Assembly: GCA_965247655.1 (NCBI GenBank)
Contig: OZ252032.1
Coordinates: forward strand, 5,339,843 to 5,403,842
From: Candidatus Poribacteria bacterium
GTDB lineage: Bacteria > Poribacteria > WGA-4E > PCPOR2b
Length of the DNA stretch: 64,000 nucleotides
Reading direction: 5' to 3'
Shown here: positions 21,228 to 37,749 of the stretch, in pieces
Layout of the letters: each line of letters starts with the position of its first letter
Numbering within the stretch: the stretch's first letter is position 1
Made by a program: the position numbers and the translations under genes
The notes under the pieces: generated by a model
What the model was told of the DNA's origin: nothing
Database searches by the model: none
Seen by the model: only the letters and a program-made list of their open reading frames with translations

Positions 21228-22097
21228 GTGATTAATACCAAGTTAAAAGGCAAAGTCGCCCTGATCACAGGCACCAATCATGGCATTGGTGCTGCAACTG
21301 CTCTGGCTCTGGGCACCCAAGGCGTAAAGGTGTTTGCATCATTCTTTCGCCCACCGTGTCAATACAGCGAAACAGAATTGAAGAAAGCCGAGAAGACCGG
21401 ATTAGGTGGTGATGTTTTCTACCGAGCAATGCAACAAAAGTCTATTGAGCACCTCGTAAATCAGTTTGAAGAAAGGGGCATGAAGATATCTGTCTTAGAA
21501 GCCGACCTTGCTGATGCAACAAACATCTCGAAACTTTTCGATGCTTGTGAGAAGGAGCTAGGACCCGTTGATATCTTGATTAACAATCACACCTATTGCG
21601 TTCTGGAAACATTTGATCCTGAGCAAAGTTCAAAAGACGGGAGAGGCATTTTTCTACCCACCGCTTCAAGCATCGACGCACACTTTGTTATTAATTCCCG
21701 ATCGTATATATTGATGATGCAAGCGTATTTGAAGCGATACCTTAAAAACGGACTGAACTGGGGACGCATTGTAAACACCAGTACAGATGCCGCACATTGC
21801 CACCCGCTGAACATCAGCTATGCCGCAAGCAAACACGCAATCGAATCTTATAGCCGCTCTGCTGCATGTGAGATGGGAAAATACGGGATAACTGTCAACG
21901 TAATCGCTCCCGGACCGATTCAGACGGGCTACATCACACCTGAAGCTGAAAAAGGAATTGCAGAATCTACACCGTTAGGTAGGATTGGCAAACCTGAAGA
22001 TGTGGCGGAGGTTACTGTTTTCCTCTGTTCTGAGCAAGCCCGTTGGCTCACAGGGCAACTACTCTATGTTGGAGGCGGCTATCGAATGCCTCAATAG
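21228..22097 (+). CDS. SDR-family short-chain dehydrogenase/reductase
   Basis: TGTNHGIG cofactor motif, YAASK catalytic YxxxK; GTG start 6 nt after GGAGG (ATG 21210 is an alternative). Confidence 0.8.
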   Translation: MINTKLKGKVALITGTNHGIGAATALALGTQGVKVFASFFRPPCQYSETELKKAEKTGLGGDVFYRAMQQKSIEHLVNQFEERGMKISVLEADLADATNISKLFDACEKELGPVDILINNHTYCVLETFDPEQSSKDGRGIFLPTASSIDAHFVINSRSYILMMQAYLKRYLKNGLNWGRIVNTSTDAAHCHPLNISYAASKHAIESYSRSAACEMGKYGITVNVIAPGPIQTGYITPEAEKGIAESTPLGRIGKPEDVAEVTVFLCSEQARWLTGQLLYVGGGYRMPQ

Positions 22098-22160
22098 GTA
22101 GGCGTTCAGCGACTTGAAAATCTTAAGCGATATTTTGACACTTGAGAGGTTGAATCATCT

Positions 22161-22955
22161 ATGATTAAAATTCATGAAGCCAATCGTCGGCACTGGAATA
22201 ATCAGGCGGCAAGATGGGAGGAACGCTTGAATCGTGATGGACGTTGGCGCAAGTGCCATAAAGAGCCTGAATTGGCATTTGAGGGTGAGACACTTGCCAC
22301 AATCCGAGAGATGGTGGGTGATCTTCACAACAAGCAAGTGTGCGTAATTGGTAGCGGGGATAACATGGCAGCCTATGCACTTTCAGGATTAGGGGCAGCC
22401 GTGACTTCCACAGATATTTCGGAGGAACGATTGAAATTGGCAGCCGATCGTGCAAAAACCCTCGGCGTGTCAATTGATTTTGTTCATTCCGATGCCGCTG
22501 CTCTCGGATTTGCAGACGATTCGACCTTTGATCTTGTCTGCTCCACAAATGGCTTTTTCGTGTGGATTGCCGATCTTGGTGCGGTATTTCGTGAGGTTTC
22601 GAGAGTCCTGAAGCCAGGAGGCGCATACATTTTCTACGACATTCATCCATTCATGCGTCCATGGAAAGAGCAGGTAACGCCTATTGAAATGGCAAAGCCT
22701 TATTGGGACACCGGACCATTTCAAGAGTCCGCGGACGAATCGTACGAGTTTAACTGGACCTTAGCGGATTTGCTTAATCCACTAGTACAAGCAGGGTTGA
22801 CATTGAAAAAAGTTGTCGAAAGCTCAACACAAGATCCCGGATTTTGGCAGGGAAGCAGTGATGCGTCTGACATCGATGAATCATTACTTGATTGGAAAAG
22901 GAATCCCCGTGCTGGATTGCCGGTCTGGCTAACAGTCGCCTGCATCCAAAATTGA
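22161..22955 (+). CDS. Class I SAM-dependent methyltransferase (paralog of 27127..27923)
   Basis: Motif I VCVIGSGDNMAAYALSGLG and motif post-I TSTDISE. Confidence 0.8.
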   Translation: MIKIHEANRRHWNNQAARWEERLNRDGRWRKCHKEPELAFEGETLATIREMVGDLHNKQVCVIGSGDNMAAYALSGLGAAVTSTDISEERLKLAADRAKTLGVSIDFVHSDAAALGFADDSTFDLVCSTNGFFVWIADLGAVFREVSRVLKPGGAYIFYDIHPFMRPWKEQVTPIEMAKPYWDTGPFQESADESYEFNWTLADLLNPLVQAGLTLKKVVESSTQDPGFWQGSSDASDIDESLLDWKRNPRAGLPVWLTVACIQN

Positions 22956-23018
22956 TTAAGGTACGGTTAGCACACAATAGCAAATTACCCGGGTTACTTT
23001 GCGCAAGGAATCCACACA

Positions 23019-23540
23019 ATGATAGAAATACGGGAAGAGCAGCGAGGGGAGTATCAGGAAATCCGTCAGGTTATCGTCGCTGCATTCGGTGGTGACTCCG
23101 AAGAACCCGCAGCCAATGTCGTTGAATTGCTTAGAGACAGAAATAAGGCACCGGTTGCGCTCGTGGCAGTCAGTGACAATAAGATTGTTGGCCATATCAT
23201 GTTTTCGCCGGTTACGATAACACTCGCGCCCAAAGCGTTCTGTGCTGTTGGACTGGCACCCCTATCCGTCCTGCCAGAGTTTCAACGGCAGGGTATTGGC
23301 TCTATGTTGGCACGTGAAGGGTTAAAAAAATGTGCGGCGGCCGGATTTGAGGTCGTAGTCGTGTTGGGAAGTCGCTATTACTACCCACGATTCGGTTTCT
23401 CCCGTGCTAGCCTTTACGGCTTGGGCAATGAATATGACACTGACGAGCATTTCATGGCAATAGAACTGAAGAATGGCGTTCTTGATAAAGTCGGCGGCAC
23501 TGTGCAGTATTCACCAGAATTCAAAGAGTGTGGTTGCTGA
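23019..23540 (+). CDS. GNAT-family acetyltransferase (paralog of 27983..28504)
   Basis: QRQGIGSMLAREGLKKCAAAGFEVVVVLG acetyl-CoA binding core. Confidence 0.8.
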   Translation: MIEIREEQRGEYQEIRQVIVAAFGGDSEEPAANVVELLRDRNKAPVALVAVSDNKIVGHIMFSPVTITLAPKAFCAVGLAPLSVLPEFQRQGIGSMLAREGLKKCAAAGFEVVVVLGSRYYYPRFGFSRASLYGLGNEYDTDEHFMAIELKNGVLDKVGGTVQYSPEFKECGC

Positions 23541-23607
23541 GAAATCCATCTACAGGATAATCGGTCAATAAAACTGACAAACCAATCTGATGATTTCACA
23601 AACAAAG

Positions 23608-23636
23608 TTGACTTGCTCACCTAAATACAGTATATT
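23608..23636 (+). promoter_or_regulatory. Near-consensus sigma70-type promoter TTGACT-N17-TATATT
   Basis: Hexamers and 17-nt spacer read directly; about 210 nt upstream of the 23845 start. Confidence 0.45.
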
Positions 23637-23844
23637 GCCTCTGAAAACGACCCAAACAACTCAAGCGGTCGGGCTGGCGTTATCTCGTAGAGACTACATT
23701 GGTGCAGGTCTCAGCCGTTACTGATAATTGTTGTATCAGAACCCAGACCAGCAGTTGTCCTTAATAGCACTGAACAGTAGTAAACACTAAATGGTTCTCT
23801 CGCTCAGTTCGTATCGAGTAGCGTCGTTGTAAGTTTACCACATC

Positions 23845-24432
23845 GTGAGAATGAACAAGCCGTTTGTTATATCAGTCAATTCAGTATCGGGCGGTGGAAA
23901 GACGGCACTGTCAGCTCTGCTCCACAAGTCATTGCCGGATTCGTCTCTTTTCTGCTTCGACGATTTCGATGATTCAAATATTTATCCTGTTGATTTCTAC
24001 GATTGGAGCCAACGTGGCGGTGACATCGAAGAATTCGACTGTCCTGGAATGCAAGCGGCGGTCGCAGCTGAAGTTCACCGGGGAACAGCAAAGCAGATTA
24101 TTTTGGATTTCCCATTCGGTCGTCGCCACTCGCGCTTTTGTGATACCATTGATTTTGCTATTTTTGTTGACACTCCGCTTGATGTCGCCATGGCGCGACG
24201 AATTTTGAGAGACTATACAATCAACCACGATGAATCCCCAGAAGGAACTCTGAATCGCCTCCATAACGATATGTCGAACTATTTGGTAAGGGCACGCTAT
24301 CCATATTTGGATACTTACAAGGACAGGGACCATAGTGATCTCGTTTTGGATGGGTGGCGCAGTCTGGATGATTTGAAGAACGACGTGATAGCGGTGCTAA
24401 AATCGAGGAATCTGGTAACCCACGTCACTTAA
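23845..24432 (+). CDS. P-loop NTPase / small-molecule kinase-like protein
   Basis: Walker A SVSGGGKTAL at the N-terminus; uridine-kinase/chloramphenicol-phosphotransferase-like architecture. Confidence 0.5.
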   Translation: MRMNKPFVISVNSVSGGGKTALSALLHKSLPDSSLFCFDDFDDSNIYPVDFYDWSQRGGDIEEFDCPGMQAAVAAEVHRGTAKQIILDFPFGRRHSRFCDTIDFAIFVDTPLDVAMARRILRDYTINHDESPEGTLNRLHNDMSNYLVRARYPYLDTYKDRDHSDLVLDGWRSLDDLKNDVIAVLKSRNLVTHVT

Positions 24433-24546
24433 AAACACAGTTTGCGCTGCGCCCCTTGGCCTTCGGCAACTCCTCGACAAGCCTGGGGCTCACAAACCGG
24501 CAAAGCGTTTCCGGAAATGGGGATTAAATCTGTGAAAAACCTAGAG

Positions 24547-25338
24547 ATGAACTCTGAGAGCAGAAGCACTGCACTCTACGACTATCCAGATTACTACGAG
24601 CTGGCATTCTCATTTCGTGACATCTCTCACGAAGTAACGTGTTTCGAGCAGTTGTTCGAGAGGTTCGCTAAGGTGCCGGTGAGGCGAGTGCTGGAGTTAG
24701 CCTGTGGTCCGAGTCCGCACATTCGGGAATTGTGCCGACGGGGTTACGAGTATCACGGGCTAGATACGAATGAAAATATGCTCGCCGCCGGCCAAAGGAA
24801 GGTTACTGAAAGTACATGGACAGCAGAATTTCACAAAGCCTCTATGATAGATTTCAACGTGGACACAACATACCAGTTTGCTTTCGTCGCGCTCGGCTCG
24901 CTGTATGCACGGAACACAGAGGAACTGTCTATCCACTTCAGGTCGGTGGCAAGCGTCCTTGAACCTGGTGGGCTTTACATGCTGGACTGGTGCGTACAAT
25001 TCGGTCAATCCCTCACTTTTTCAGAGACAGGTCAGTCCTGGACAGTGGAGGAGGAAGGGATCGCAGTCGAAGTGAACGTCACATTGAGGGACGTTGATCC
25101 CATCGAGCAGATTGTCCAAGAAGTGGCCACTCTAAATGTGACAGACTACGGCCGATCCCTGACGATATCTAGTTCAGACCTACGAAGGGTGATGTATCCA
25201 CAGGAGTTTCTCTTGCTAACCGACGCTATGGAGGAGTTCAAGTTTCTGGGTTGGTGGAACGATTGGGACTTGAACCAGCCATTATCACAGGTAACAGGTG
25301 AGATTAATCGGCCAATCGTACTGCTTCGTCGGGTCTGA
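24547..25338 (+). CDS. Class I SAM-dependent methyltransferase
   Basis: Motif I VLELACGPSPH; start uncertain (24517 or 24547) because a repeat element overlaps the upstream region. Confidence 0.65.
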   Translation: MNSESRSTALYDYPDYYELAFSFRDISHEVTCFEQLFERFAKVPVRRVLELACGPSPHIRELCRRGYEYHGLDTNENMLAAGQRKVTESTWTAEFHKASMIDFNVDTTYQFAFVALGSLYARNTEELSIHFRSVASVLEPGGLYMLDWCVQFGQSLTFSETGQSWTVEEEGIAVEVNVTLRDVDPIEQIVQEVATLNVTDYGRSLTISSSDLRRVMYPQEFLLLTDAMEEFKFLGWWNDWDLNQPLSQVTGEINRPIVLLRRV

Positions 25339-25532
25339 GAGGTCTGAACTACTCAGTAGCTAGGAAACCGAACGTCCACATCCGGTAACACCCGGCTGCC
25401 ACTGCACCGTCCTGCAGCAGCTTGATCTTCGGCAACCCCTACACAAACCGCCTTTTCATAGGCACTGTTGTAGGGCCCAATGTCGAGTATAATAATGCTA
25501 GATAATCATTTGTAACATCTTGGGGTGGTATA

Positions 25533-26339
25533 TTGACTGATCACGACAATCTTGAGGAGTTTTCTGATCCAGCCAACTATGATTTGGAGGATGCTAGCGA
25601 TACAGGTATCGCTTTTTACACTGCCTTAGCACAGGAAACTGGCGATCCTGTACTCGAAATCGCCTGTGGTACGGGTCGTGTCAGCATCCCGATTGCACGA
25701 TTGGGTTTTTCTGTAACTGGTTTAGATATCGTACCGGGAATGATAGAGCGGGCGCGTAGCAAATCTGTTGGCTTACCTACACGCTGGATCGTGGGCGACG
25801 CCCGTACATTTGACCTCGGCGAACAATTTCGACTCATCTTCTTGACTGGCAATGCTTTTCAGGCTTTTTTAACAAACGCCGATCAAGAAGCACTGTTGCA
25901 ACGTGTGTATGCACATTTACACGACGAGGGATTGTTTGCCTTTGAAACGCGCAACCCGATTTTCCCCCACTCCCAGACTCCAGAGGGGCTATTTGTGCCC
26001 CTTGAAACGAATGTGGAAGAACAAGATTGGTCATCCTTTATTGATACAAGTGGGCACGAAGTGCGTGTGTCGAGAACTTACGTATATGACCATGTGGCTC
26101 AGATCCATCACTGGACGACCTACAAACGCTGGCACGAAGGTGGGGAGGAACACACCAAGATCACGCGTACTGCGTTGCGCTACATCTTCCCGCAGGAACT
26201 TGCAGCACTACTATACTACAATGGCTTCAGCATCGCACAGCAGTATGGTGATTGGAGTCTAGCACCGCTGACCGCTGATAACCCTAGCATCATCTCAGTC
26301 TGCCGCAAGCGCGGAGGATTTCAATCGCTTAATCAATGA
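25533..26339 (+). CDS. Class I SAM-dependent methyltransferase
   Basis: Motif I VLEIACGTGRVS, motif II GLDIVPGM; TTG start behind GGGGTGG. Confidence 0.7.
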   Translation: MTDHDNLEEFSDPANYDLEDASDTGIAFYTALAQETGDPVLEIACGTGRVSIPIARLGFSVTGLDIVPGMIERARSKSVGLPTRWIVGDARTFDLGEQFRLIFLTGNAFQAFLTNADQEALLQRVYAHLHDEGLFAFETRNPIFPHSQTPEGLFVPLETNVEEQDWSSFIDTSGHEVRVSRTYVYDHVAQIHHWTTYKRWHEGGEEHTKITRTALRYIFPQELAALLYYNGFSIAQQYGDWSLAPLTADNPSIISVCRKRGGFQSLNQ

Positions 26340-26408
26340 AACTGACAAATCCAAACGCACCAATCATAAACGGAACTGGTGCCTATACCAACGGATTGGA
26401 GGATCGAC

Positions 26409-26992
26409 ATGGATAAATACTTGCGTCCCACGGACGTGATGGATTATAACCACCCTGAAGTTCAAGATCTAGCGCGTACTTTAGGAAACGGGATCTCAGA
26501 GCAAACGATAATCTCAAAACGCTGCTTTGAGTGGGTACGAGATGAAATCAAGCATAGTGGGGACTTCAAGATGAATCCGACGACCTGCGCTGCGTCCGAG
26601 GTATTGCGTTATAAGACAGGATGGTTTTTGCCAAGAGTCATCTGCTGGCTGCGCTCTTAAGGGCAAACCATATACCCGCTGGATTGTGCTACCAACGGCT
26701 CACACGAAACGAGAAGACGGCCCCCCTCACACTACACGGTTTGAATGCAGTTCTGCTGCCTGAATTTGGGTGGTACAGAATTGATCCAAGAGGCAACAGA
26801 AACGGGGTAAACGCTCAATTCGATCCGCCCAACGAGAAATTAGCCTGGCCGATAGCCGTTGAGGGAGAAAGGAATCTCCGAGACGTGTGGGCAGATCCTC
26901 TGCCGACGGTGGTTGCTGTCTTGAGGAGCTACGACACTTGGGAAGGGATTCGTAATCACCTTCCAGACCTGCCCTTCCAGCAAGGAGACTGA
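26409..26992 (+). pseudogene. Transglutaminase-like cysteine protease superfamily gene, frameshifted at the catalytic Cys codon
   Basis: N-part ends ...SEVLRYKTGWF and continues in another frame as (V)FAKSHLLAALLRANHIPAG...H...D; two overlapping ORFs 26379..26660 and 26621..26992; break lies in a T5 run. Confidence 0.55.
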
Positions 26993-27126
26993 ACTTTCGT
27001 CTCTATATAACACCCAATCGCTGCTGCCGCGCTCACACACCTTTGGCTTTGGGCAAACCGCTTTGCGGGTTCAGCCACTTGAAAACCTTAAGCGATATTT
27101 TGATACTTGCGAGGTCGAATCGTCTA

Positions 27127-27923
27127 TGATTAAAATTCATGAAGCCAATCGTCGGCATTGGAATAGTCAAGCACCAACATGGGAGGAACGCTTGAACCGT
27201 GATGGTCGTTGGCGCAGATGTCATAAAGAGCCTGAATTGGCATTTGAGGGCGAAACACTTGCCACAATCCGAGAGATGGTAGGCGATCTTCGCAACAAAC
27301 AGGTGTGTGTAATTGGTAGTGGAGATAACATGGCAGCCTATGCACTTTCAGGATTAGGGGCAGTCGTGACTTCCACAGATATTTCGGAGGAACGATTGAA
27401 ATTGGCAGCAGATCGTGCAGAAATCCTCGGTGTGTCAATCGATTTTGTTCGTTCCGATGCCGCAGATCTCGGATTCGCAGACGATTCGACCTTTGATCTT
27501 GTCTGCTCCACAAATGGCTTTTTCGTGTGGATTGCCGATCCCGGTGCGGTATTTCGTGAGGTTTCAAGAATCCTGAAACCAGGAGGCGCATACGTTTTCT
27601 ACGACATCCATCCATTCATGCGCCCATGGAAAGAGCAGGTGACGCCCATTGAAATGGCGAAGCCTTATTGGGACACTGGACCGTTTCGAGAGTCAGCGGA
27701 CGGATCGTACGAGTTTAACTGGACCTTGGCCGATTTGCTTAATCCGCTGGCACAAACTGGATTGACATTGAAAAAAGTTGTCGAAAGTCCAGCGCAAGAT
27801 CCCGGATTTTGGCAGGGAAGCAGTGATATGTCTAGCACCGATGAATCTTTACTTGATTGGAAAAGGAATCCCCGCGCTGGATTGCCTGTTTGGCTAACAG
27901 TCGCTGCCTCCAGAATTGATTGA
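27127..27923 (+). CDS. Class I SAM-dependent methyltransferase (second copy, about 93 percent identical to 22161..22955)
   Basis: Same motifs as 22161; conserved 50-nt upstream leader. Confidence 0.8.
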
Positions 27924-27982
27924 GGTACGGTCAGAACACAGTGGCAAGTTACCCGGGTTACTTTGCGAAAGGAATCCACACA

Positions 27983-28504
27983 ATGATAGAGATACGGGAA
28001 GAACAGCAAGAGGAGTGTCAGGAAATCCATCAGGTTATCGTCGCTGCATTCGGTGGTGACCCCGAAGAACCCGTAGCCGACGTCGTTGAATTGCTTCGAG
28101 ATAGAAACAAGGCACCGGTTGCGCTTGTGGCAGTCAGGGACAACAAGATTGTCGGTCATATCATGTTTTCACCGGTTACGATAACACTCGCGCCCAAAGC
28201 GTTCCGTGCTGTTGGACTGGCACCCCTATCCGTCCTGCCAGAGTTCCAAAGGCAGGGCATTGGCTCTATGTTGGCACGCGAAGGGTTAAAAAAATGTGCG
28301 GCGGCAGGATTTGAGATAGCAGTCGTGTTGGGAAGTCGCTACTACTACCCACGATTCGGTTTCTCTCGTGCCAGTTTTTACGGCTTGGGCAATGAATATG
28401 ACACTGACGAGCATTTCATGGCAATAGAACTGAAGAATGGCGTTCTTGATAAAGTCAGCGGCACCGTGCAGTATTCGCCAGAATTCAAGGAGTGTGGTTG
28501 CTGA
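27983..28504 (+). CDS. GNAT-family acetyltransferase (second copy, about 93 percent identical to 23019..23540)
   Basis: Near-identical protein sequence to 23019 copy. Confidence 0.8.
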   Translation: MIEIREEQQEECQEIHQVIVAAFGGDPEEPVADVVELLRDRNKAPVALVAVRDNKIVGHIMFSPVTITLAPKAFRAVGLAPLSVLPEFQRQGIGSMLAREGLKKCAAAGFEIAVVLGSRYYYPRFGFSRASFYGLGNEYDTDEHFMAIELKNGVLDKVSGTVQYSPEFKECGC

Positions 28505-28559
28505 GAAATCCAGCCACAGGATAATCCGTGAAAACTTATACAAAACGGTAAGATTAGAA

Positions 28560-29627
28560 ATGACCTCGAGCACTAAAACCAACAATACACCCAACGATGG
28601 AACCGATTTCGTAAGTGGCATTGATTTAGCCCGGATGTTCTATGTTGAAATCGTTCGCCCACTCATAGAAGGGCGAGCCCACAGTGCAGCGAGGCTAGGG
28701 TCAGGGTCGGATGTTCTCGGTTTCGATACCCCTCGATCAACAGACCACGGCTGGGGACCACAATTACACCTTTTTGTGGCAGCCTCTGAGGTAGATGCCA
28801 TCCGCACGATTATCGATTCAAACCTACCGGAGGAGTTTCACGGGTGGCCCGTGCGCTTCGGCTGGGATGAGGTCGCCATTCAGCACCATGTGAGCGTTGT
28901 ATCTCTTGGGGAGTGGCTTGAATTGCATCTGGGATTCGATCCGCAAGTGGATATTACCGTCCAAAACTGGCTTACGACGCCACAACAACTACTGCTAGAA
29001 GTAACAGCAGGTGCGGTCTTTCATGATCCGGATGGAGATTTGAAACGGGTTCGCAGTAAACTGGAGTGGTTTCCAAACGATATTTGGCTATGGCTCTTGG
29101 CTTGTCAGTGGCGTCGAATTGCTCAAGAAGAGGCGTTCGTTGGTCGCACGGCTGAAATCGGCGATGAACTCGGTTCACGAATCCTGACAGCCCGAATTGT
29201 ACGCGATCTCATGAGGCTTTGCTTCCTTATAGAGCGGCAATATGCTCCATATAGCAAGTGGCTGGGCAGCGCATTCCGAAATCTCCGCATTGCCTTCAAA
29301 CTCACCCCGTATCTGGATGCAGCACTCAAGGCTACGGACTACCTTGCTAGAGAAACGGGGCTCTGTTCTGCCTACGAATATGTCGCACGTTGCTACAATC
29401 AACTGAACCTCACCCCTCCCGTTGATCCTGAAACCCGCTTGTTTTATAAACGTCCTTTTCGGGTGCTTGGAGGAGATCGATTTGCAGAGGCGTGCTTGGC
29501 AGCCATTCAAGATGAGTGGCTGAAAGGACAACCGCTTGTAGGGAGTGTCGATCAGTTTGTGGACAGTACGGATGTCTTGAGCAGCGCACACCGATCTCGG
29601 TGTCTTACCAATATCTATGACGACTGA
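28560..29627 (+). CDS. Nucleotidyltransferase-like / DUF4037-like protein (paralog 1 of 3)
   Basis: Degenerate pol-beta NTase motif LGSGSDVLGFDTPRSTDHGWGP; shared C-terminal region with 29727 and 32047 proteins (W..L..W... APY.KWL). Confidence 0.5.
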   Translation: MTSSTKTNNTPNDGTDFVSGIDLARMFYVEIVRPLIEGRAHSAARLGSGSDVLGFDTPRSTDHGWGPQLHLFVAASEVDAIRTIIDSNLPEEFHGWPVRFGWDEVAIQHHVSVVSLGEWLELHLGFDPQVDITVQNWLTTPQQLLLEVTAGAVFHDPDGDLKRVRSKLEWFPNDIWLWLLACQWRRIAQEEAFVGRTAEIGDELGSRILTARIVRDLMRLCFLIERQYAPYSKWLGSAFRNLRIAFKLTPYLDAALKATDYLARETGLCSAYEYVARCYNQLNLTPPVDPETRLFYKRPFRVLGGDRFAEACLAAIQDEWLKGQPLVGSVDQFVDSTDVLSSAHRSRCLTNIYDD

Positions 29628-29726
29628 ATTCTATTTGTCTAACAAGCTCGTCGCCCAATCGCTTCGTGGTTCGGGTACATTGGAAGTGTGGATTCAGGGT
29701 GTACAAACGGGCAAGCTAAGGAGACC

Positions 29727-30710
29727 GTGAAATTGACAACACCTATTAAGGCCCTTGAACTTTCACGCCGGTTGTTTGAGCAACGCGGACACCCCTTACT
29801 CCAGCAACTTGATCTGCTCGATGTATGTGCGGTGGGTTGTTTTGGAGGCACTTCACAGAACGCCAATCTTGATGACGATTGGTCTCGCGATCACATGTGG
29901 GGTCCGTACCTCACCTTCGTCTTGAAGGGCGAAGCCTACAATGAACATGAGTCCGCACTAGAAAAAGCTATCGCAAAGATGCCTGATGAAATTGATGGTG
30001 TGCACTGGATTGGCTACGATGGGCCCGAGCCACGCAGAACCGGTGTCCAAGAAGCGCATTCACTTCTGCGTTTGATAACAGGTCTTGAGGGTCCCGTAGA
30101 TAGCGAAGAGGATTGGATTTCGCTCATCGAGCGTAACGGTTTTCTGGGGTGTCGCTGGACCGAACAGCTTTTTGACGCAGGTCAAGGAGCAGTTTTTCAT
30201 GGGGCATGGTTTGAGGGGATGTGGCGGGACTGGACAAAATTCGTTCCGATAAACGTCAAGTTGGCGTTAATCAGTCGCTCCGTATTTCGAATCTGGAATG
30301 CGGGTCCGACCTATAATCTCAAGCGATTAATCGCTCGCAAGGATGCGATAGGAACGCTCCTCTGTACGAGTCGGTTCGTCGATGAGGTAATGGAGTTGGG
30401 GTTCACTCTGAGTGACCAGTTCACACCTTCCTTCAAGTGGCGATCTGCCCATTTCCAACGCCTCTCGGTCTTCTCAAAAGAAACCCAGACTGCGATTGCG
30501 AGATTAGTTGAAGTAAAAGACGTGGAAGAGATTCTATCCATTGCAAAATCTATCGAGTCTGAAATTAAAAGTGTATTGCGGTCTATGTTCTCTGTCAGAT
30601 GCGGACAGAGAACCGACTTGTCCATGTATGCACACGCAATCAAAAGAAAGATACGTCACAAGCGAGTGAAAGATATGACGAATCTAGATTGGTGGGTTCA
30701 TCTCGGATGA
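29727..30710 (+). CDS. Nucleotidyltransferase-like / DUF4037-like protein (paralog 2 of 3)
   Basis: GCFGGTSQNANLDDDWSRDHMWGP motif; start uncertain (GTG 29688, GTG 29727 or TTG 29733). Confidence 0.5.
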   Translation: MKLTTPIKALELSRRLFEQRGHPLLQQLDLLDVCAVGCFGGTSQNANLDDDWSRDHMWGPYLTFVLKGEAYNEHESALEKAIAKMPDEIDGVHWIGYDGPEPRRTGVQEAHSLLRLITGLEGPVDSEEDWISLIERNGFLGCRWTEQLFDAGQGAVFHGAWFEGMWRDWTKFVPINVKLALISRSVFRIWNAGPTYNLKRLIARKDAIGTLLCTSRFVDEVMELGFTLSDQFTPSFKWRSAHFQRLSVFSKETQTAIARLVEVKDVEEILSIAKSIESEIKSVLRSMFSVRCGQRTDLSMYAHAIKRKIRHKRVKDMTNLDWWVHLG

Positions 30711-30919
30711 ACAATAGGAGAATCTGAGAGGGTATAGGAGCAAGATAGAAGAAATAACCCGCGTCACTTAACAACACGGTTTGCGCTGCGGTGCTTAGCA
30801 CCTTGGCCTTCGGCAACCTAGTTGCACAGGTTTGCAAACCGGCAAACGTTAGCGGCCATGCATCCACACTTGAGCAATAGCCTTTGTTCAACAACCATTA
30901 CCAACATGAGATTCCCGCC

Positions 30920-31918
30920 ATGATGAATGTTGAAAACATGCGACTAGTAGTCGACGTTCTGGAGTCAACGAAAGCGTGTCCGGCTTTGACGGAGATCGCT
31001 GCTCGAAGGTGGTCTCCTGAACCTCATCTCTTTTCCTATGTGAGGAGCAGTGCCACTTTCATCTTCACGTTCTATCAGGGCGAGCAAAAGAGGATTCTCA
31101 GACTTCAACACTCGGCGGACACCACTCTCGAACGAATCACCTCTGAACTTGAATTTATCCATCACGTTTTCGAGACTGGAGTCCAAGCTGCCAAAGCGAT
31201 CCCGTCACGAAATGACCAAATCGTGGAGGTGGTGGACTGGGAGGGGCACACCTTCTACGCAACCGCGTTTGAGTACATGGTCGGGAGACACTGCGAGACT
31301 CAAGATCTCACATCTGAAATGTTGTTTCAGTGGGGCAAGACACTTGCGCTCATTCATCTGGCCTCACGCAGTTTTGTGGAACCGGAGGGTTTTGCCATCC
31401 CATCTTGGGAAAACGAACTGAATCAATTGGTTAAATACATTCCAGAAGATGAAAGCCGGACGCAAGACGAGCTAAAATGCGTTCGGGAGTGGCTCGGACA
31501 GCGGGAGAAGACCTCAAAAAATTATGGCTTGATCCATCGTGACTTGGAATTGGACAACATGAAATGGGATGGTGAGCACTTCCTGGTGTTTGATTTCAAC
31601 GACCTGATGTACCATTACTTCGCAGCAGATGTCGCATCCTCTCTTGAGGAAATTCTTGGGACCGAAGATGCTGAGAAGAACTCGACGCGGTTCCTTGAGG
31701 GATATGAGCGGTCCCTAGACGACCTCGAAATCAACGTAGACGAATTCCCAATGTTCTCCCGAGCCGCCAGACTTCGCAAGTACCTCAAGCTCCTTGCATC
31801 GTACTCGGGAACGCGTCCGGAATCTGATTCGGAATGGCTGTCGGGGATGCGCAAGCGACACGAAAGCGTAATGGATTATCTCCGTGAGTCGGTCGCGACT
31901 CCATTTAGCTGGCAATGA
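30920..31918 (+). CDS. APH-family phosphotransferase (aminoglycoside/choline kinase-like)
   Basis: Catalytic loop LIHRDLELDNMKW and FDFNDL motif; ATG 30920 preferred over TTG 30884. Confidence 0.7.
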   Translation: MMNVENMRLVVDVLESTKACPALTEIAARRWSPEPHLFSYVRSSATFIFTFYQGEQKRILRLQHSADTTLERITSELEFIHHVFETGVQAAKAIPSRNDQIVEVVDWEGHTFYATAFEYMVGRHCETQDLTSEMLFQWGKTLALIHLASRSFVEPEGFAIPSWENELNQLVKYIPEDESRTQDELKCVREWLGQREKTSKNYGLIHRDLELDNMKWDGEHFLVFDFNDLMYHYFAADVASSLEEILGTEDAEKNSTRFLEGYERSLDDLEINVDEFPMFSRAARLRKYLKLLASYSGTRPESDSEWLSGMRKRHESVMDYLRESVATPFSWQ

Positions 31919-32046
31919 GCCGCTGTGCACACCTGCTAATCTGTGCATCCACGGCTTCGCCAAGTTAGTTTTCAAAAAGGTTAGTCGTCTTTAGATCTGG
32001 AACTGGTATTAGGTGCCATCTAAGAAATGTCATCGTGGAGGACTCT

Positions 32047-33030
32047 ATGAAAGGATTTGAACTATCAGAGCGATTCTTCCGAGAGATTGGGCTTCCTACC
32101 ATTGAGCAGCAATTGCCTAGGTGTATCCCGAGACTGGCAGTAGGAGTTAGTGAAGGCTCGCAAGCGCACAAGAACGACGACGAGGTGTCTCGTGATCATG
32201 GTTGGGGACCGGGATTCACGGTGTGGTTTGCCAAAAACGATTTCGATGATTACGGCGAGCATCTACGGGAAGTACTCGATACGCTGCCCAATGCGTATAA
32301 CGGATTTCGATGGAAGAATCCACCGGCTAGGACCTGTGGTGTAATCGAAATCGGTAGCTATATAGAATCTGTAGTCGGATTTCCAGAGCCCCCCGAGTCA
32401 TCTATGGACTGGTTGCGAATACCAGAGTCGTATCTGTTTGAACTAACCCCGAGCAGGCTTTATCACGATGGGCCTGGCATTGTCAGTGCGCACTTCAGAG
32501 CGTTCTCCAAATACCCCGATGATGTATGGAAGCAGCGAATGGGGGCTTGTCTTTCCTGGCTCTGGGAGTGGGGACGAAAGCATCTCTTCAGGGCAGAAAC
32601 TCGAGAAGACTACGTGAGTGCGTCTTGCTATTGGGCGCGATTCGCTGAATACGCAATGAAGGTTGGTTTTCTGATGAGTCAGCGTCATGCACCCTACCAC
32701 AAATGGTTGTGGACAGAATTTAGAAAGTTGGGTGCTATTGCCGACGAAGTTTCTCCTTTGCTCGAGGAGGGGTTCGAGAAGGTAAATAGTAGACGAGAAC
32801 TGGTTGACCGCATAGAGATGCTCTATATGGAGAGGCTTCAGAAGTTGGGCTTTTCATTAGAACTCACGGTCCAAGTAGCCGCTAGAAGATTGGCCTATCC
32901 GGACAACGAACTACTTCAATATGCTCAGGGTATTCGGGGCACAATTGAAGATCCAGAAATCAAGAAACTACACTTGAGAGAAGAACTTGTCTATCCAGCA
33001 ACTAAGGCCGCGTGGACGTGGCTACGATAG
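32047..33030 (+). CDS. Nucleotidyltransferase-like / DUF4037-like protein (paralog 3 of 3)
   Basis: GVSEGSQAHKNDDEVSRDHGWGP motif; ATG 32047 behind GGAGG. Confidence 0.5.
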   Translation: MKGFELSERFFREIGLPTIEQQLPRCIPRLAVGVSEGSQAHKNDDEVSRDHGWGPGFTVWFAKNDFDDYGEHLREVLDTLPNAYNGFRWKNPPARTCGVIEIGSYIESVVGFPEPPESSMDWLRIPESYLFELTPSRLYHDGPGIVSAHFRAFSKYPDDVWKQRMGACLSWLWEWGRKHLFRAETREDYVSASCYWARFAEYAMKVGFLMSQRHAPYHKWLWTEFRKLGAIADEVSPLLEEGFEKVNSRRELVDRIEMLYMERLQKLGFSLELTVQVAARRLAYPDNELLQYAQGIRGTIEDPEIKKLHLREELVYPATKAAWTWLR

Positions 33031-33451
33031 GGACCCCCTAGTAGTCGGCACCTAAAATCATGCCCCCGGTCCTGGGCCCCTTCGCCCAACCGCTTCGCAG
33101 GTTCGGCAATTGGGACAACGCTATGGGAACAGCAAATCAGATTACTAACACCGTAGTTATGGTCGCATTACACAGAGACAGATGAACCCTATATGACACA
33201 ACTAACCCATGGTCTGAGTCTGCCAAGAAGCTTCTTCGGACAGGCTAGGGCTTCACCCAACCTGTACTTTGGATATGCTATCTGAAAGGTGTCTTTCGAT
33301 ATCAAGTAATAGTTCCATATCCTTGTGTTGCTACCGCTCCTTGGTTTGTAGGGCAACAGTTAATCACTATTTGTGTACGGATAAAACGTTACAAGAAAAT
33401 GCGACCTACAAAAGTGGTCACCTCTGGCCACTGTCTAAGACGAGGGTAAAA

Positions 33452-34366
33452 ATGAAAAAACTCACACACGCTGCATCTCAGAGCGCGAAGAACTTCATAA
33501 TGGATCAGGGGAGGGCGTTGGACCAAAAGCGTTTTAAATTTCACTTTGAAGCCGGATCTGCTAATGCCGTCCTTACCGAGCTGGCATCTTATCAAAACGA
33601 CGATGGGGGTTTTGGCAACAGTCTGGAACCTGACATCAGGACATCGGCTTCATCTGCGATTGCGACCACGGTAGGTTTTCAGGTTCTCAGGGAAATTCGG
33701 GCACCTGTGGGGCACGCGCTGGTACGGAAAGGAATCGAGTATTTTGTCGCTACCTACGATGAGTCCCGGCAGGTATGGCCAATCATTCCACCTGAAGTGG
33801 CTGAGGCACCTCACGCCCCCTGGTGGAATTACGAGAACAGTGCCGAAAGTTTCGGTCAGTTTCTGGTCAACCCACGTGCTGAGATTGTCGGATATTTGCA
33901 CGAATTTAGCGATGAAGTGCCGACGAAATTGCTGAAGCCATTAGCCGCGGCCGTTCTGGAGCATCTGGATTCCCTGACCGACGAAATGGAGATGCACAAC
34001 ATCCTCTGTTTCGCAAGGCTCGCGGAAACGGAGGCTCTACCGAATAGGGACAAGGTTTGGGAAAAACTGGCCCAGGCGGCGGCACTTCGTGTCGCCCGGA
34101 ATGCAGAGCAGCTGACTGGCTATGTTCTCAAGCCCCTGTGGTTGGTTTCCTCTCCGGAATCACCTCTCGCCGCTGGGCTTAAGGACGAAGTGGCGATGAA
34201 CTTGGACTTTGAGATCGAACAGCAGGGTGAGGACGGCTCTTGGTCTCCGAATTTCTCTTGGGGAGATCAATATCCAGAAACGTGGCGAACAGCCAAGAAA
34301 GAATGGCAATCTAGATTCACAGTTGATACCTTGAAAACGTTGAGAGATTTCGGGCGCATCGAATAA
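33452..34366 (+). CDS. Alpha/alpha-toroid repeat protein (prenyltransferase / terpene-cyclase-like QxxDGG(F/W) repeats)
   Basis: QNDDGGFGNS and QQGEDGSWSP motifs; GAGGG RBS before ATG 33452. Confidence 0.35.
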   Translation: MKKLTHAASQSAKNFIMDQGRALDQKRFKFHFEAGSANAVLTELASYQNDDGGFGNSLEPDIRTSASSAIATTVGFQVLREIRAPVGHALVRKGIEYFVATYDESRQVWPIIPPEVAEAPHAPWWNYENSAESFGQFLVNPRAEIVGYLHEFSDEVPTKLLKPLAAAVLEHLDSLTDEMEMHNILCFARLAETEALPNRDKVWEKLAQAAALRVARNAEQLTGYVLKPLWLVSSPESPLAAGLKDEVAMNLDFEIEQQGEDGSWSPNFSWGDQYPETWRTAKKEWQSRFTVDTLKTLRDFGRIE

Positions 34367-34385
34367 GTAGGGCCTTATGCTAGTT

Positions 34386-34425
34386 AGCTTCCCTTTTTTT
34401 ATGGGAACTAAAAAAAAGGGAAGCT
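34386..34425 (+). other. Strong hairpin (15-bp stem AGCTTCCCTTTTTTT / AAAAAAAGGGAAGCT) inside the IS982 left end, upstream of the transposase start
   Basis: Perfect inverted repeat read directly; may sequester read-through transcription into the transposase. Confidence 0.6.
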
Positions 34426-34491
34426 AAAAAGTCCTCCAGTCTGTTACTATAGATGAACTTGACAATCCATCTAAAACTGGAGGATAACCTT

Positions 34492-35400
34492 ATGATAACC
34501 GATTTTGATGACCTCTGTCTATGGACTTATGTCATTGTTGATGACATTCTGATAAAACTCGAACCATTACTCCGACGCCCAGGCCCCCCTCCCCCATGTA
34601 GCGATAGTGAGTTAATCACTATGATATTGGTTGCCGAATGTAAGGGGTGGGACATCGAAACACAACTGCTATCCGACTTTAGCCAGCACCCCCATCTGTT
34701 CCCTATACTGCCTTGTCAGACCCGACTCAACCGGCGAAGACGCAATTTGGGGACAATCATCAATCGGATTCGACAGATGCTCTTGTCAGACATTGAAGCG
34801 GCATCGGAGAAACTGTGTATTATTGATAGTTTGCCGATTCCAGTCATTCAGTTTCATCTGGCACCTTCGTCATCAAATAATTGGTCATGCTATGGTGCCG
34901 ATTATGGGCGGGTGGAATCGAGGAAACAGACCATTTTCGGCTATAAACTTCATCTGTTAGTCACCGCAAGTGGGGTGATTGTTGATTTTGAACTTGCCCC
35001 GGCTTCTGCAACCGATTTATCGGTTGGTTACGAATTGCTCTCTGGACACCAAGATAAGCAAGTGATAGGGGATAAAGCCTATATTAGCAACCAAGTCAAA
35101 GACCAATTAGCTCAACTCAACCGTATCGATCTGATAACGGTCCCCCGACGCAACCAGAAACAGCAGATTTCCAGACAAACCAAGCGGTGGATTAACGAAA
35201 TTAGGCAGAGGGTTGAAACGGTTAATGGTCAATTGAGTGAACAATTTCATATACAAAAGAATCATGCGCATAGTTTCTGGGGGGTATGCACTCGGTTATA
35301 CTCCAAACTCACCGCTCATACGCTATGCGTTTATCTCAATCAGCTATGCAAAAAAGAGGCGTTTTTACAGATTAAAGAGTTGGCGTTTCCAGTTCATTAG
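34492..35400 (+). CDS. IS982-family DDE transposase
   Basis: CSDSELITMILVAE, IDSLPIPV, GYKLHLLV, IGDKAY motifs; start at ATG 34492 behind GGAGGA. Confidence 0.8.
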   Translation: MITDFDDLCLWTYVIVDDILIKLEPLLRRPGPPPPCSDSELITMILVAECKGWDIETQLLSDFSQHPHLFPILPCQTRLNRRRRNLGTIINRIRQMLLSDIEAASEKLCIIDSLPIPVIQFHLAPSSSNNWSCYGADYGRVESRKQTIFGYKLHLLVTASGVIVDFELAPASATDLSVGYELLSGHQDKQVIGDKAYISNQVKDQLAQLNRIDLITVPRRNQKQQISRQTKRWINEIRQRVETVNGQLSEQFHIQKNHAHSFWGVCTRLYSKLTAHTLCVYLNQLCKKEAFLQIKELAFPVH

Positions 35401-35735
35401 TAACTAGCATAAGGCCCAAGTAGATAAATAGAATGCAGATACGGGTATGATGTTCTTGACACCGCGTGTTCATTCCGCTAAGGCAGCAATTTACGTTGCG
35501 TCGCCTGTGCTCTTTTGCCTTCGGTAATCCGCTAAGCGGGTACGGCAATTTGAAAACGCTAGGCCAAACTGTAAAACCCGAAATGTAAACACACTAGTCG
35601 ATGCTTGGAAATCTCGCCAATCCCCTAGCGCATTCGAGCGGATGGCTGCGCGAAAATGAACGCTCTTACTCGCTATCCCAATTAGACGTTCAGCATTATA
35701 TCGTATACCGGAGAGGTATATACTACAGCAGATTT

Positions 35736-37529: not shown

Positions 37530-37749
37530 GACCAGCCTCCTTATATTCGGATTATCGGAAATATGGGAAAGGTTTTCGTAATTATCCTTCGTCTGTTTCG
37601 GTCGCCAAACGAATTTCAACGCTCACGGCACTTGTCAGTCACCTTTTGCGACGATGTGCATTATACCCCCACTTACGAAAAAGGGTCAACTGAAAAACAA
37701 AAAATAAGAGCACGTTGGAACGCAGTTGTCATGGGCTCCCCCTCCCATC

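What the first reader, a model, noticed from the sequence alone, without database searches (positions are those of the whole stretch)
28560..33030. Three tandem paralogs of a nucleotidyltransferase-like/DUF4037-like family interleaved with an APH kinase
The three proteins span 28560..29627, 29727..30710 and 32047..33030. Each carries a degenerate pol-beta nucleotidyltransferase motif ending in S(R/T)DH(G/M)WGP (GSGSDVLGFDTPRSTDHGWGP, GGTSQNANLDDDWSRDHMWGP, GSQAHKNDDEVSRDHGWGP). They also share a conserved C-terminal helical region (W..L..W, APY.KWL). They are only about 25-30 percent identical to each other, which indicates old duplication and divergence, and an APH-family kinase sits between copies 2 and 3. 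The family is poorly characterised. A triple expansion next to kinase, GNAT and methyltransferase genes suggests a substrate-diversifying modification system.
Basis: partly seen in the sequence, partly recalled or inferred. Interest (0 to 1): 0.65.

Follow-up and report, generated by a model that had tools for sequence, protein, structure and literature searches.

The report
Three DUF4037 genes in cassette array
The three genes really are distant relatives of one uncharacterised enzyme family shaped like antibiotic-modifying nucleotidyltransferases, but they look like separately captured mobile gene cassettes in a decaying integron-type array of a sponge-symbiont genome, not parts of one co-operating system.

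Summary
There are three + strand genes: 28560-29627, 29727/29733-30710 and 32047-33030. All hit Pfam DUF4037, are 24-28% identical pairwise, and flank an APH-family kinase (30920-31918).

The motif is not degenerate. GS..D..SxDH..WGP, D141, R182 and K219-W220 are near-invariant in 149 diverse representatives. The canonical DxD is absent.

The "tandem expansion / modification system" reading is not supported:
- The genes belong to three old subfamilies, each with closer relatives in other phyla.
- Window 22.1-35.6 kb is an integron-type cassette array, with attC-like sites after P2 and P3, a partial one after P1 and an undetected remnant after the kinase.
- Related strains carry the same cassettes in other orders. 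The P3 cassette's left edge falls exactly at G|TTAGGT.
- No integrase lies in the window, and its attC sites are decayed.

Function remains unknown. My best guess is NMP transfer to small molecules. Overall this is a new member of known kinds, of moderate interest.

The parts
28560..29627 (+). P1, DUF4037 protein, 355 aa (largest subfamily; motif GSGSDVLGFDTPRSTDHGWGP)
   Evidence: Pfam PF13228 E = 5.5e-35. The exact protein is in public collections on a 6.74 Mb contig. The orthologous cassette occurs in L003 (90%), L006, L052 and L015.
29636..29721 (+). Decayed attC-like site after P1 (R''-like TGTCTAAC, conserved core TCGCCCAATCGCTTCGTGGTTCGGG, R'-like GCTAAGG)
   Evidence: Partial covariance-model hit at 29637-29671, 13.2 bits, E = 0.52, so weak on its own. 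The core motif occurs at 29651 and 33082, with 0 matches expected by chance. Homology with L003 breaks at 29634.
29727..30710 (+). P2, DUF4037 protein (325-327 aa; public gene call starts at TTG 29733; motif GGTSQNANLDDDWSRDHMWGP)
   Evidence: Pfam PF13228 E = 5.6e-15. The 325-aa form is in the collection. The module w29720-30765 equals L006 9988-11032 at 91% and sits there in a different context.
30760..30863 (+). Canonical attC-like site after P2 (R'' ACTTAAC, L'' CGGTTTGC / L' GCAAACCG, R' GTTAGCG)
   Evidence: Covariance model R1 scores 51.9 bits, but this site was part of the training alignment. The hairpin pairing CGGTTTGC/GCAAACCG appears in the ssDNA fold.
30920..31918 (+). APH-family kinase cassette (ORF opens at TTG 30884; likely start ATG 30920, 332 aa)
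   Evidence: PF01636 E = 4e-21. Only weak NCBIfam hits, to homoserine-kinase and CotS types, far below cut-off. It is 99.4% identical to the 332-aa gene in L052.
31933..32008 (+). Remnant of the attC of the kinase cassette (5' half CTGCTAAT-CTGTGCATCCACGGCTTCGCC; the 3' end runs into the TTAGGT that opens the P3 cassette)
   Evidence: Read directly from the sequence. The covariance model does not detect it. Its right edge is set by the P3 cassette boundary at 32009.
32047..33030 (+). P3, DUF4037 protein, 327 aa (motif GSQAHKNDDEVSRDHGWGP); the protein whose structure was modelled
33044..33135 (+). attC-like site after P3 (decayed: R'' CCTAAA, R' GCTATGG, L''/L' no longer pair)
   Evidence: R1 scores 33.8 bits, E = 2.1e-6, and this site was not in the training set. 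Its 5' half is homologous to the intact attC L007 6425-6521.
22100..35580 (+). Whole cassette array between the SDR gene (ends 22097) and the convergent AMP-binding gene (35736-37619, - strand). Further attC-like sites at 24421-24522, 26999-27102, 33298-33403 and 35482-35573. Also holds an internal 1.46-kb duplication and an IS insertion (34453-35400).
   Evidence: All covariance-model hits with E < 0.1 are on the + strand and inside this interval. The sister strain L003 has the same two flanks but different content. A transposase is present.
27983..28504 (+). GNAT acetyltransferase directly upstream of P1 (56-nt spacer holding only the last ~20 nt of an attC)
   Evidence: PF13527 and PF00583 hits. 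A GNAT also precedes P1 or P2 orthologs in L003, L006 and L052. GNAT-DUF4037 fusions exist elsewhere.

Best explanation
Window 22.1-35.6 kb is a decaying integron-type gene-cassette array, that is, a cluster of attC sites with no integrase in the window. The genome belongs to a sponge-associated lineage that public records label Candidatus Poribacteria or Candidatus Latescibacterota.

P1, P2, the APH kinase and P3 are four separate single-gene cassettes that happen to be neighbours in this strain lineage.

Each DUF4037 protein is a stand-alone two-domain protein. The N-terminal alpha/beta domain has the pol-beta nucleotidyltransferase fold. The C-terminal four-helix bundle is of the non-catalytic HEPN / KNTase_C type.

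The family keeps the G-S nucleotide-binding turn. It replaces the canonical DxD with a strictly conserved D44...S48-x-D50-H51-x-W-G-P loop. D141 on a neighbouring strand and R182 and K219-W220 on the helical domain are also conserved.

Inferred, not shown: these residues bind NTP and metal, and the enzymes transfer NMP to a hydroxyl of a small-molecule acceptor held between the two domains, as ANT(4') and LinB do. The three old subfamilies would have different acceptors, and each would work on its own rather than with the kinase.
For: Family and fold:
- All three proteins hit PF13228.

Conserved site:
- In 149 aligned sequences (146 cluster representatives plus P1-P3), S38, S48, D50 and W220 are in 149. 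H51 and D44 are in 146, W122 in 148, R182 and K219 in 147, and D141 in 143.
- The family is large: 4220 representative clusters at E <= 1e-3.

Link to small-molecule modification:
- GNAT-DUF4037 and DUF4037-GNAT fusions exist.
- GNAT, methyltransferase, PhyH, NUDIX and MazG genes are recurrent neighbours.

Cassette array:
- There are 21 canonical attC sites (xxTAAC...GTTRRRY) in L007, which carries the P3 ortholog.
- The attC structure is 88.9% paired. Ten pairs show compensatory changes, 0 of 500 shuffles reach that, and slide controls give about 40%.
- Seven + strand covariance-model hits, confined to 24.4-35.6 kb, lie in the window.
- The P3 cassette's left edge in L007 falls exactly at G|TTAGGT. 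The same edges are seen in L025, where intact attC sites flank it.
- The P1 ortholog in L003 and in L015 is directly preceded by an attC.
- Sister strain L003 has the same flanks but PhyH instead of P2-APH-P3.
- An IntI-like recombinase lies divergent from arrays of this attC family in L033 and L010.

Separate origins:
- The three proteins fall into three distinct clusters.
Against: Against the proposed activity:
- The catalytic activity is not shown.
- No sequence method links the N-domain to NTases. None of 83 members hits PF01909. The profile search against PDB is empty. hhalign against KNTase finds nothing.
- The canonical DxD at the start of strand 2 is missing. The model places SxDH in a helical turn 7 residues before the strand.
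- I could not inspect coordinates to see whether D44, D50 and D141 cluster.
- The N-domain's best structural matches are protein AMPylators (DrrA, GlnE), not antibiotic NTases.

Against the cassette reading:
- Most attC sites in the window are degraded, and their ssDNA folds are no better than shuffles.
- The attC after P1 is only a partial hit at E = 0.52.
- The model does not detect the kinase's attC.
- The attC after P2 differs from the one after its ortholog in L006.
- The 1.46-kb duplication begins inside an attC, not at R'. Homologous recombination therefore also shaped the array.
- No integrase lies within 64 kb.
- The recombinase found in relatives scores below the curated IntI cut-off and lacks the IntI-specific insertion.
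- The order P1-P2-APH-P3 is kept in a second sample.
Confidence: 0.6

Rival explanations
1. P1, P2, APH and P3, with the upstream GNAT and methyltransferases, form one co-transcribed system that modifies a set of related substrates in several ways (nucleotidylation, phosphorylation, acetylation, methylation).
For: - All genes are co-directional with short spacers.
- The order P1-P2-APH-P3 recurs at 94.7% identity in L052.
- GNAT-DUF4037 fusions exist.
- In Paenibacillus, a methyltransferase, a DUF4037 gene and an APH are adjacent.
Against: - Related strains split the set. L003 has P1 then PhyH. L006 has P1 and P2 six genes apart. L007 and L025 have P3 alone among unrelated cassettes.
- attC-like sites or remnants separate the genes, though they are clear only after P2 and P3.
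- The Paenibacillus APH is not an ortholog of the window's APH: 28% identity over 81 aa.
- L052 is a close relative, so it does not count as independent conservation.
- Promoter and terminator scans show nothing beyond chance.
Confidence: 0.12
2. The DUF4037 proteins are not small-molecule nucleotidyltransferases. They could be protein AMPylators of the GlnE/DrrA kind, fused MNT-HEPN-like regulators, or enzymes with a different chemistry built on the Asp/His site.
For: - The canonical DxD is absent, and an invariant His follows the Asp.
- TPR-DUF4037 fusions suggest protein partners.
- DUF4037 is listed among the HEPN-related C-terminal domains of NTases (PMC3710099).
Against: - The full-length architecture matches KNTase, LinB and 3c18 best.
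- No Rx4-6H HEPN nuclease motif follows the invariant R182 (consensus).
- There are no PADLOC hits.
- GNAT fusions and resistance-like neighbours point to small molecules.
Confidence: 0.2
3. The three genes arose by tandem duplication in this genome and then diverged.
For: They are adjacent, on the same strand and in the same family.
Against: - Pairwise identity is only 24-28%, while each has 87-93% orthologs in related strains and 39-64% relatives in other phyla.
- They fall into three separate clusters.
- Each occurs on its own in other arrays.
Confidence: 0.03
4. The intergenic repeats are a lineage-specific REP- or MITE-like palindromic element rather than integron attC sites, and the region is an ordinary variable island.
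For: - Copies in the window fold no better than shuffled sequence.
- There is no integrase in the window.
- The neighbouring recombinase in relatives lacks the IntI insertion and scores below the curated IntI cut-off.
Against: - The R''/R' boxes TAAC/GTTA are invariant in 20 of 20 copies, and the L''/L' stem co-varies.
- In L007 there is one copy after nearly every gene, always on the coding strand.
- A cassette edge falls exactly at G|TT.
- The recombinase is divergent from the array in two genomes, and its best PDB match is VchIntIA.
Confidence: 0.1

Closest known systems
Kanamycin nucleotidyltransferase ANT(4')-Ia (PDB 1kny, 6nlt, 6un8) and lincosamide nucleotidyltransferase LinB (3jyy)
   Different: There is no detectable sequence similarity. 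KNTase has S49-D50-I-E52 at the start of strand 2. The window proteins have S48-x-D50-H51-x-W-G-P in a loop or helical turn ahead of the strand. No substrate or activity is known.
Pfam DUF4037 (PF13228), grouped with KNTase_C as the non-catalytic HEPN-like 'Aminoglycoside_NT_C' domain (PMC3710099)
   Same: All three proteins and all 83 aligned relatives hit the model above its cut-off. They lack the Rx4-6H motif, as that paper's table states for this group.
   Different: The Pfam model covers only about 100 residues (P3 122-221). That stretch straddles the end of the alpha/beta domain and the first long helices. The conserved N-terminal GS...SxDH...WGP part has no model at all.
GlnE adenylyltransferase domains (3k7d, 1v4a) and Legionella DrrA/SidM AMPylation domain (6yx5, 3nku)
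   Different: They are protein AMPylators, much larger and multi-domain, with a canonical G-x11-D-x-D motif. Sequence identity is 7-12%.
Sedentary chromosomal integrons and clusters of attC sites lacking an integrase (CALIN)
   Same: The array is co-directional, with attC sites carrying RYYYAAC / GTTRRRY boxes and a co-varying L''/L' stem. Cassette edges fall at G|TT. Cassette content varies between strains that share the same flanks. The cargo is typical: GNAT, methyltransferases, toxin-antitoxin-like genes and unknowns.
   Different: The window has no integrase and no recognisable attI or Pc. Most of its attC sites are degraded (GCT instead of GTT, unpaired stems). The recombinase next to intact arrays in relatives is Xer-like, lacks the IntI-specific insertion and scores below the curated IntI cut-off.

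Membership tests
Pfam DUF4037 (PF13228) | Match to the family HMM above its gathering score (22.1 bits) | tested here: met
   P1 scores 120.6 bits, P2 56.3 bits and P3 70.9 bits. All 83 aligned relatives match.
Pol-beta-type nucleotidyltransferase superfamily | The alpha/beta NTase fold (mixed sheet with helices; hG[GS] turn after strand 1) | tested here: met
Pol-beta-type nucleotidyltransferase superfamily | Catalytic [DE]h[DE]h at the start of strand 2, 9-13 residues after the GS | tested here: not met
   The sequence there is S48-x-D50-H51-x-W-G-P. Strand 2 (residues 58-61, TVWF) carries no acidic residue. Only one Asp and one His are conserved at the expected place.
Pol-beta-type nucleotidyltransferase superfamily | A third carboxylate on a neighbouring strand that completes the metal site | tested here: inconclusive
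   D141, at the end of strand 138-141, is conserved in 143 of 149 sequences.
Pol-beta-type nucleotidyltransferase superfamily | Sequence-level match to an NTase domain model (e.g. PF01909 NTP_transf_2) | tested here: not met
   None of 83 members matches at E <= 1. The profile search against PDB sequences finds no NTase. hhalign against KNTase gives probability 0.1.
Antibiotic nucleotidyltransferases (ANT(4'), LinB, ANT(6)) | Two-domain NTase plus helical substrate-binding domain architecture | tested here: met
Antibiotic nucleotidyltransferases (ANT(4'), LinB, ANT(6)) | Demonstrated NMP transfer to an antibiotic, or a resistance phenotype | not testable with these tools
   This needs enzyme assays or MIC tests. 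No characterised DUF4037 member turned up in the four of five DUF4037-mentioning papers that were checked.
Catalytic HEPN RNases | Rx4-6H motif at the end of helix 3 | tested here: not met
   The invariant R182 is followed by AxxRGD, with no conserved His within 4-6 residues (consensus). This agrees with the table in PMC3710099.
Integron gene-cassette array | attC sites: R'' RYYYAAC and R' GTTRRRY boxes, an imperfect palindrome with L''/L', one after each cassette, all in one orientation | tested here: met
   In relatives the sites are canonical and co-varying. In the window there are seven + strand covariance-model hits, of which four have E < 0.01. Most show degraded boxes and stems.
Integron gene-cassette array | Cassette boundaries at the G|TT of R' | tested here: met
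   The P3 cassette's homology with L007 starts exactly at TTAGGT, after the G of the upstream attC. The same edges (32009-33106) are seen in L025. The other edges (P1, P2) lie within a few nt of R'-like boxes and are less clean.
Integron gene-cassette array | Adjacent integron integrase (tyrosine recombinase with the IntI-specific insertion), attI and Pc | tested here: not met
   No tyrosine recombinase was found next to the array among the ORFs scanned; the only recombinase-type genes nearby are the IS5 and DDE transposases at its edges. In relatives L033 and L010, a divergent recombinase hits TIGR02249 at 223 bits, below the 265 cut-off. It has only about 18 aa where VchIntIA has about 60.
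APH / protein-kinase-like phosphotransferases (PF01636) | Match to the family HMM above its cut-off (the gene between P2 and P3) | tested here: met
   76.3 bits against a cut-off of 23.2. No NCBIfam equivalog comes near its cut-off, so the substrate is unknown.

The most novel reading that the evidence does not exclude
The GS...D...SxDH.WGP clade of DUF4037 (thousands of clusters) is a distinct catalytic class of pol-beta-fold enzymes that uses an Asp/His site instead of DxD. It would travel as integron cassettes and inactivate natural products or antibiotics, making it an unrecognised family of mobile resistance or detoxification enzymes. Separately, the attC arrays of these sponge symbionts would be serviced by an insertion-less, Xer-like integrase.
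Probability: 0.2. Interest if true: 0.65.

Novelty: new member of a known kind. Interest (0 to 1): 0.4.

Why it matters
If the proteins are active, this is a very large uncharacterised family. The profile finds 4220 clusters at 50% identity. It has the ANT build but a remodelled, strictly conserved active site, and it is carried on mobile cassettes. That makes it a candidate reservoir of new small-molecule-modifying or resistance enzymes, and a clean target for structure-guided biochemistry.

The context result matters for annotation. Neighbouring 'paralogs' in cassette arrays should not be read as operons or local expansions.

The result also documents attC-type cassette arrays, and a possible unusual integrase, in sponge-associated Latescibacterota/Poribacteria. 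I found no description of these in the searchable literature. That library is incomplete, so this is not proof of novelty.

Tried and rejected
Searches that found nothing:
- Sequence searches of P1, P3 and the family profile against PDB.
- NCBIfam.
- hhalign of the family against KNTase.
- PADLOC defence models for P1-P3, the kinase and the downstream unknown.
- Rfam on 15-36 kb.

Tools that failed or returned nothing usable:
- The afdb50 fold library was not available.
- Exact look-ups of the window's own P1, P3 and APH products returned no record. The source record could therefore not be named.

Tests that went against a working idea:
- ssDNA folding of the window's intergenic repeats gave z-scores from -1 to +0.8. 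This first argued against the attC idea. It is explained by decay of the window's copies, because intact copies in relatives co-vary.
- The search for an integrase next to the array found only an IS5 transposase splitting a hydrolase gene.
- The promoter and terminator scan of 27-35.8 kb gave counts equal to those of shuffles.
- DUF4037-APH adjacency in Paenibacillus was tested as support for a conserved gene pair. The kinases are not orthologous.

Literature searches for DUF4037 function, and for integrons in Poribacteria, Latescibacteria or sponges, found nothing specific.

Full report
OBSERVATION

The three ORFs exist on the + strand. P1 (28560-29627, 355 aa) and P3 (32047-33030, 327 aa) occur with exactly these sequences in public collections, on a 6.74-Mb contig.

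All three hit Pfam DUF4037, at E = 5.5e-35, 5.6e-15 and 1.6e-19. They hit nothing else. BLASTP pairs are 24%, 28% and 24% identical, at E = 2e-9, 2e-25 and 2e-25.

The gene between P2 and P3 is an APH-family kinase (PF01636, E = 4e-21). Its likely start is ATG 30920. The quoted motifs are present.

WHAT THE PROTEINS ARE

Sequence methods give no relative of known structure or function:
- NCBIfam finds nothing.
- The protein and family-profile searches against PDB sequences find nothing.
- None of 83 family members touches an NTase-domain model such as PF01909.
- hhalign against kanamycin nucleotidyltransferase finds nothing.

Structure prediction is clear. P3 folds with mean pLDDT 93.6 and pTM 0.91. 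The model has an alpha/beta domain (about residues 1-155) and a helical domain (158-300).

Foldseek ranks ANT(4'), 3c18 and LinB first, at probability 1.0 and E about 3e-3.

THE MOTIF

The motif is not degenerate. I aligned the three window proteins with 146 representatives of 50%-identity clusters, 149 sequences in all. The counts, in P3 numbering, are:
- 149 of 149: S38, S48, D50, W220
- 148: W122, P216
- 147: P157, R182, K219
- 146: H51, D44
- 143: D141

The profile finds 4220 representative clusters at E <= 1e-3 and 1278 at E <= 1e-30.

The consensus is GS[EDQ]xxGxD[DT]xxSxDHx[WF]GP. Laid ungapped against KNTase (GSLGRQTDGPYSDIE), the G-S and the Ser align. KNTase D50-I-E52 then corresponds to x-D-H. 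In the model, the SxDH residues sit in a short helical turn, and strand 2 (residues 58-61) has no acidic residue.

The canonical DxD feature is therefore not met. A conserved alternative constellation exists instead: D44, D50, H51 and D141, plus R182 and K219 from the helical domain. That these residues form an NTP/metal site is inference, because I had no access to the coordinates.

No paper in the library reports a function for DUF4037. The HEPN survey lists it with KNTase_C as a non-catalytic C-terminal domain of aminoglycoside-type NTases (PMC3710099). The other mentions checked are incidental.

Clues to function:
- Fusions include GNAT-DUF4037 in both orders, TPR-DUF4037 and TPR-DUF4037-DUF4125.
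- Recurrent neighbours are GNAT, methyltransferase, PhyH, NUDIX and MazG genes.
- There are no PADLOC hits.

THE CONTEXT CHANGES THE INTERPRETATION

From 15.6 to 34.4 kb, every gene is on the + strand and encodes a small, unrelated enzyme. In order they are:
- a sulfotransferase, a GNAT, an APH, an enolase-superfamily protein, an adenosine-deaminase-like protein and an SDR
- a methyltransferase and a GNAT
- a P-loop kinase-like protein and two methyltransferases
- a transglutaminase-like fragment, then a second methyltransferase and GNAT
- P1, P2, APH, P3, an unknown protein and a transposase

The spacers between 24 and 35.6 kb share recurring motifs, all in one orientation.

The decisive evidence came from relatives. 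L007 carries an 87% ortholog of P3. It has 21 elements of about 97 nt, one after almost every gene and all on the coding strand. Each has the boxes xxTAAC ... GTTRRRY.

I aligned 20 such elements and tested a structure of R''/R' plus a 9-bp L''/L' stem plus an inner hairpin:
- The structure is 88.9% paired.
- Ten pairs show compensatory changes.
- None of 500 shuffles reaches these values.
- Sliding the partners by 1-3 columns drops pairing to about 40%.

These are attC-type sites.

A covariance model built from them, run unfiltered over the 64-kb window, finds hits only on the + strand and only inside the array:

| Window position | Bits | E-value | Note |
|---|---|---|---|
| 30760-30863 | 51.9 | 3.9e-11 | after P2; was in the training set |
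| 33044-33135 | 33.8 | 2.1e-6 | after P3 |
| 26999-27102 | 29.5 | 2.8e-5 | |
| 33298-33403 | 20.4 | 0.0069 | |
| 24421-24522 | 18.4 | 0.022 | |
| 35482-35573 | 17.8 | 0.032 | |
| 29637-29671 | 13.2 | 0.52 | after P1; partial |

All remaining hits have E > 3 and are scattered on both strands.

The window's copies are degraded. Their R' boxes read GCTATGG, GCTAGGC or CTTAAGC, and their stems are unpaired. That explains why their ssDNA folds are no better than shuffles.

CASSETTE BEHAVIOUR

Nucleotide comparison with relatives shows the following.

- Sister strain L003 is about 90% identical and has the same flanks, namely the SDR on one side and the AMP-binding and S9-peptidase genes on the other. 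It has P1 followed by PhyH, with no P2, APH or P3. Its P1 is directly preceded by an attC (40.8 bits).
- L006 has P1 followed by only the first ~480 nt of P2. The full P2 lies six genes further on, between a GNAT and an M20 peptidase.
- The P3 module (w32009-33106) recurs in L007 and in L025, among unrelated cassettes and with identical edges. In L007 the left edge is exactly the TTAGGT after the G of the upstream attC. In L025 it is flanked by attC sites of 87.7 and 46.3 bits.
- P1 recurs at 78.6% in L015, with an attC right upstream.
- L052, from another sample, keeps P1-P2-APH-P3 at 94.7% identity but differs just upstream of P1. The block is therefore lineage-specific, not unique to this genome.

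An exact-pattern scan for the attC core in species-representative genomes found 44 loci. Almost all are in Candidatus Latescibacterota MAG chromosomes, plus three sponge-derived Gemmatimonadota MAGs. The closest named protein homolog of P1 (86%) is labelled Candidatus Poribacteria.

In two of these genomes (L033 and L010), a tyrosine recombinase lies divergent from such an array. Its best NCBIfam model is the integron integrase TIGR02249, at E = 5.7e-66 and 223 bits. That is below the curated cut-off of 265. Its best PDB match is VchIntIA, at E = 4e-45. It has only about 18 residues where IntI4 has about 60, so it appears to lack the IntI-specific insertion.

The window holds no integrase. The array is bounded by IS elements, and a 1.46-kb internal duplication starts inside an attC. 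Homologous recombination and IS activity therefore also shaped it.

ORIGIN OF THE THREE COPIES

In a clustering of 83 homologs, P1, P2 and P3 fall into three separate groups. Each group contains members from other phyla. They are not products of local duplication.

MECHANISM

Shown:
- membership of the DUF4037 family
- the conserved site residues
- the cassette context

Inferred:
- Each protein binds NTP and metal through G37-S38, D44, D50, H51 and D141, with R182 and K219 on the phosphates.
- Each transfers NMP to a hydroxyl of a small molecule bound between the domains, as ANT(4') and LinB do.
- The three subfamilies have different acceptors.
- Each acts independently of the kinase.

I put about 0.85 on the fold, about 0.8 on the cassette-array context and about 0.35 on small-molecule nucleotidylation specifically. 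The main rival for activity is protein AMPylation or a different chemistry, because DrrA and GlnE are the best matches to the N-domain and the DxD is missing.

COMPARISON AND NOVELTY

The proteins are members of DUF4037. They work like, but cannot be filed as, ANT-type nucleotidyltransferases, because the defining DxD was tested and not met and no activity is known.

The locus behaves like a cluster of attC sites lacking an integrase. It is not a complete integron.

Both are new members of known kinds. The interest lies in the size and strict conservation of an uncharacterised, cassette-borne enzyme family. It also lies in attC arrays, possibly with an unusual integrase, in sponge symbionts. 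I found no description of these in the searchable literature.

Noticed in passing
window 22104-23562 and 27069-28526: A 1459-nt segmental duplication at 91.6% identity carries a methyltransferase + GNAT gene pair. Its left edge lies inside the 3' half of an attC-like site rather than at the R' crossover point. This suggests homologous recombination between attC copies.
   Followed up: partly
window 13401-15040: An IS5-family transposase (13735-14526, - strand; NF033580 E = 5e-66) splits what looks like one alpha/beta-hydrolase gene into 13401-13742 and 14765-15040.
   Followed up: no
window 34453-35400: A DDE (IS4-like) transposase is inserted in the array. It is absent at this position in sister strain L003. 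A 40-nt palindrome lies just upstream, at 34367-34452.
   Followed up: no
L033 2492-3451 (-) and L010 4229-5092 (+) (Ca. Latescibacterota OZ242214.1, CBDCNM010000002.1): A tyrosine recombinase lies divergent from arrays of the same attC family. Its best matches are the integron integrase model TIGR02249 (223 bits, below the 265 cut-off) and VchIntIA (E = 4e-45). It has only about 18 aa where IntI4 has about 60, so it seems to lack the IntI-specific insertion. This may be an unusual Xer-like cassette integrase.
   Followed up: partly
L007 1-15000 (ENA ERZ25067264 ctg828696): This locus has 21 intact attC sites in 15 kb. They include five nearly identical ~420-nt units (at 207, 625, 1859, 2277 and 4388) that look like repeated tiny or empty cassettes.
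   Followed up: no
L006 5114-5658: In this related strain, P1 is followed by only the first ~480 nt of P2 (called as two small ORFs). An intact P2 copy lies 4.4 kb downstream. This looks like a rearrangement scar inside a DUF4037 gene.
   Followed up: partly
window 15658-22097: Upstream of the attC-bearing part lies another co-directional run of small enzyme genes: a sulfotransferase, a GNAT, a second APH kinase, an enolase-superfamily protein, an adenosine-deaminase-like protein and an SDR. No detectable attC sites were found there.
   Followed up: partly
window 19860-19990: Two strong hairpins lie in the 241-nt spacer after the enolase-superfamily gene. The fold energy is -21.4 kcal/mol against -12.4 for shuffles, z = -3.45. 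They look terminator-like.
   Followed up: no
L053 4983-8170 (Paenibacillus rhizosphaerae JACHXJ010000001.1) and L054: A P3-subfamily DUF4037 gene (39% identity) sits between a methyltransferase and an APH kinase in a Firmicute. That kinase is not an ortholog of the window's kinase (28% over 81 aa).
   Followed up: yes
window 10001-12000: AT skew of 0.246 in this 2-kb bin, far above the rest of the window. It lies over two - strand ORFs with no family match (10595-11413 and 11473-12270).
   Followed up: no
window 33298-33403 and 33452-34366: The long ORF listed as 33269-34366 begins inside an attC-like site. The real gene most likely starts at ATG 33452 (304 aa; no Pfam, NCBIfam or PADLOC match). 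The stretch 33136-33297 between two attC-like sites looks like an empty cassette.
   Followed up: partly
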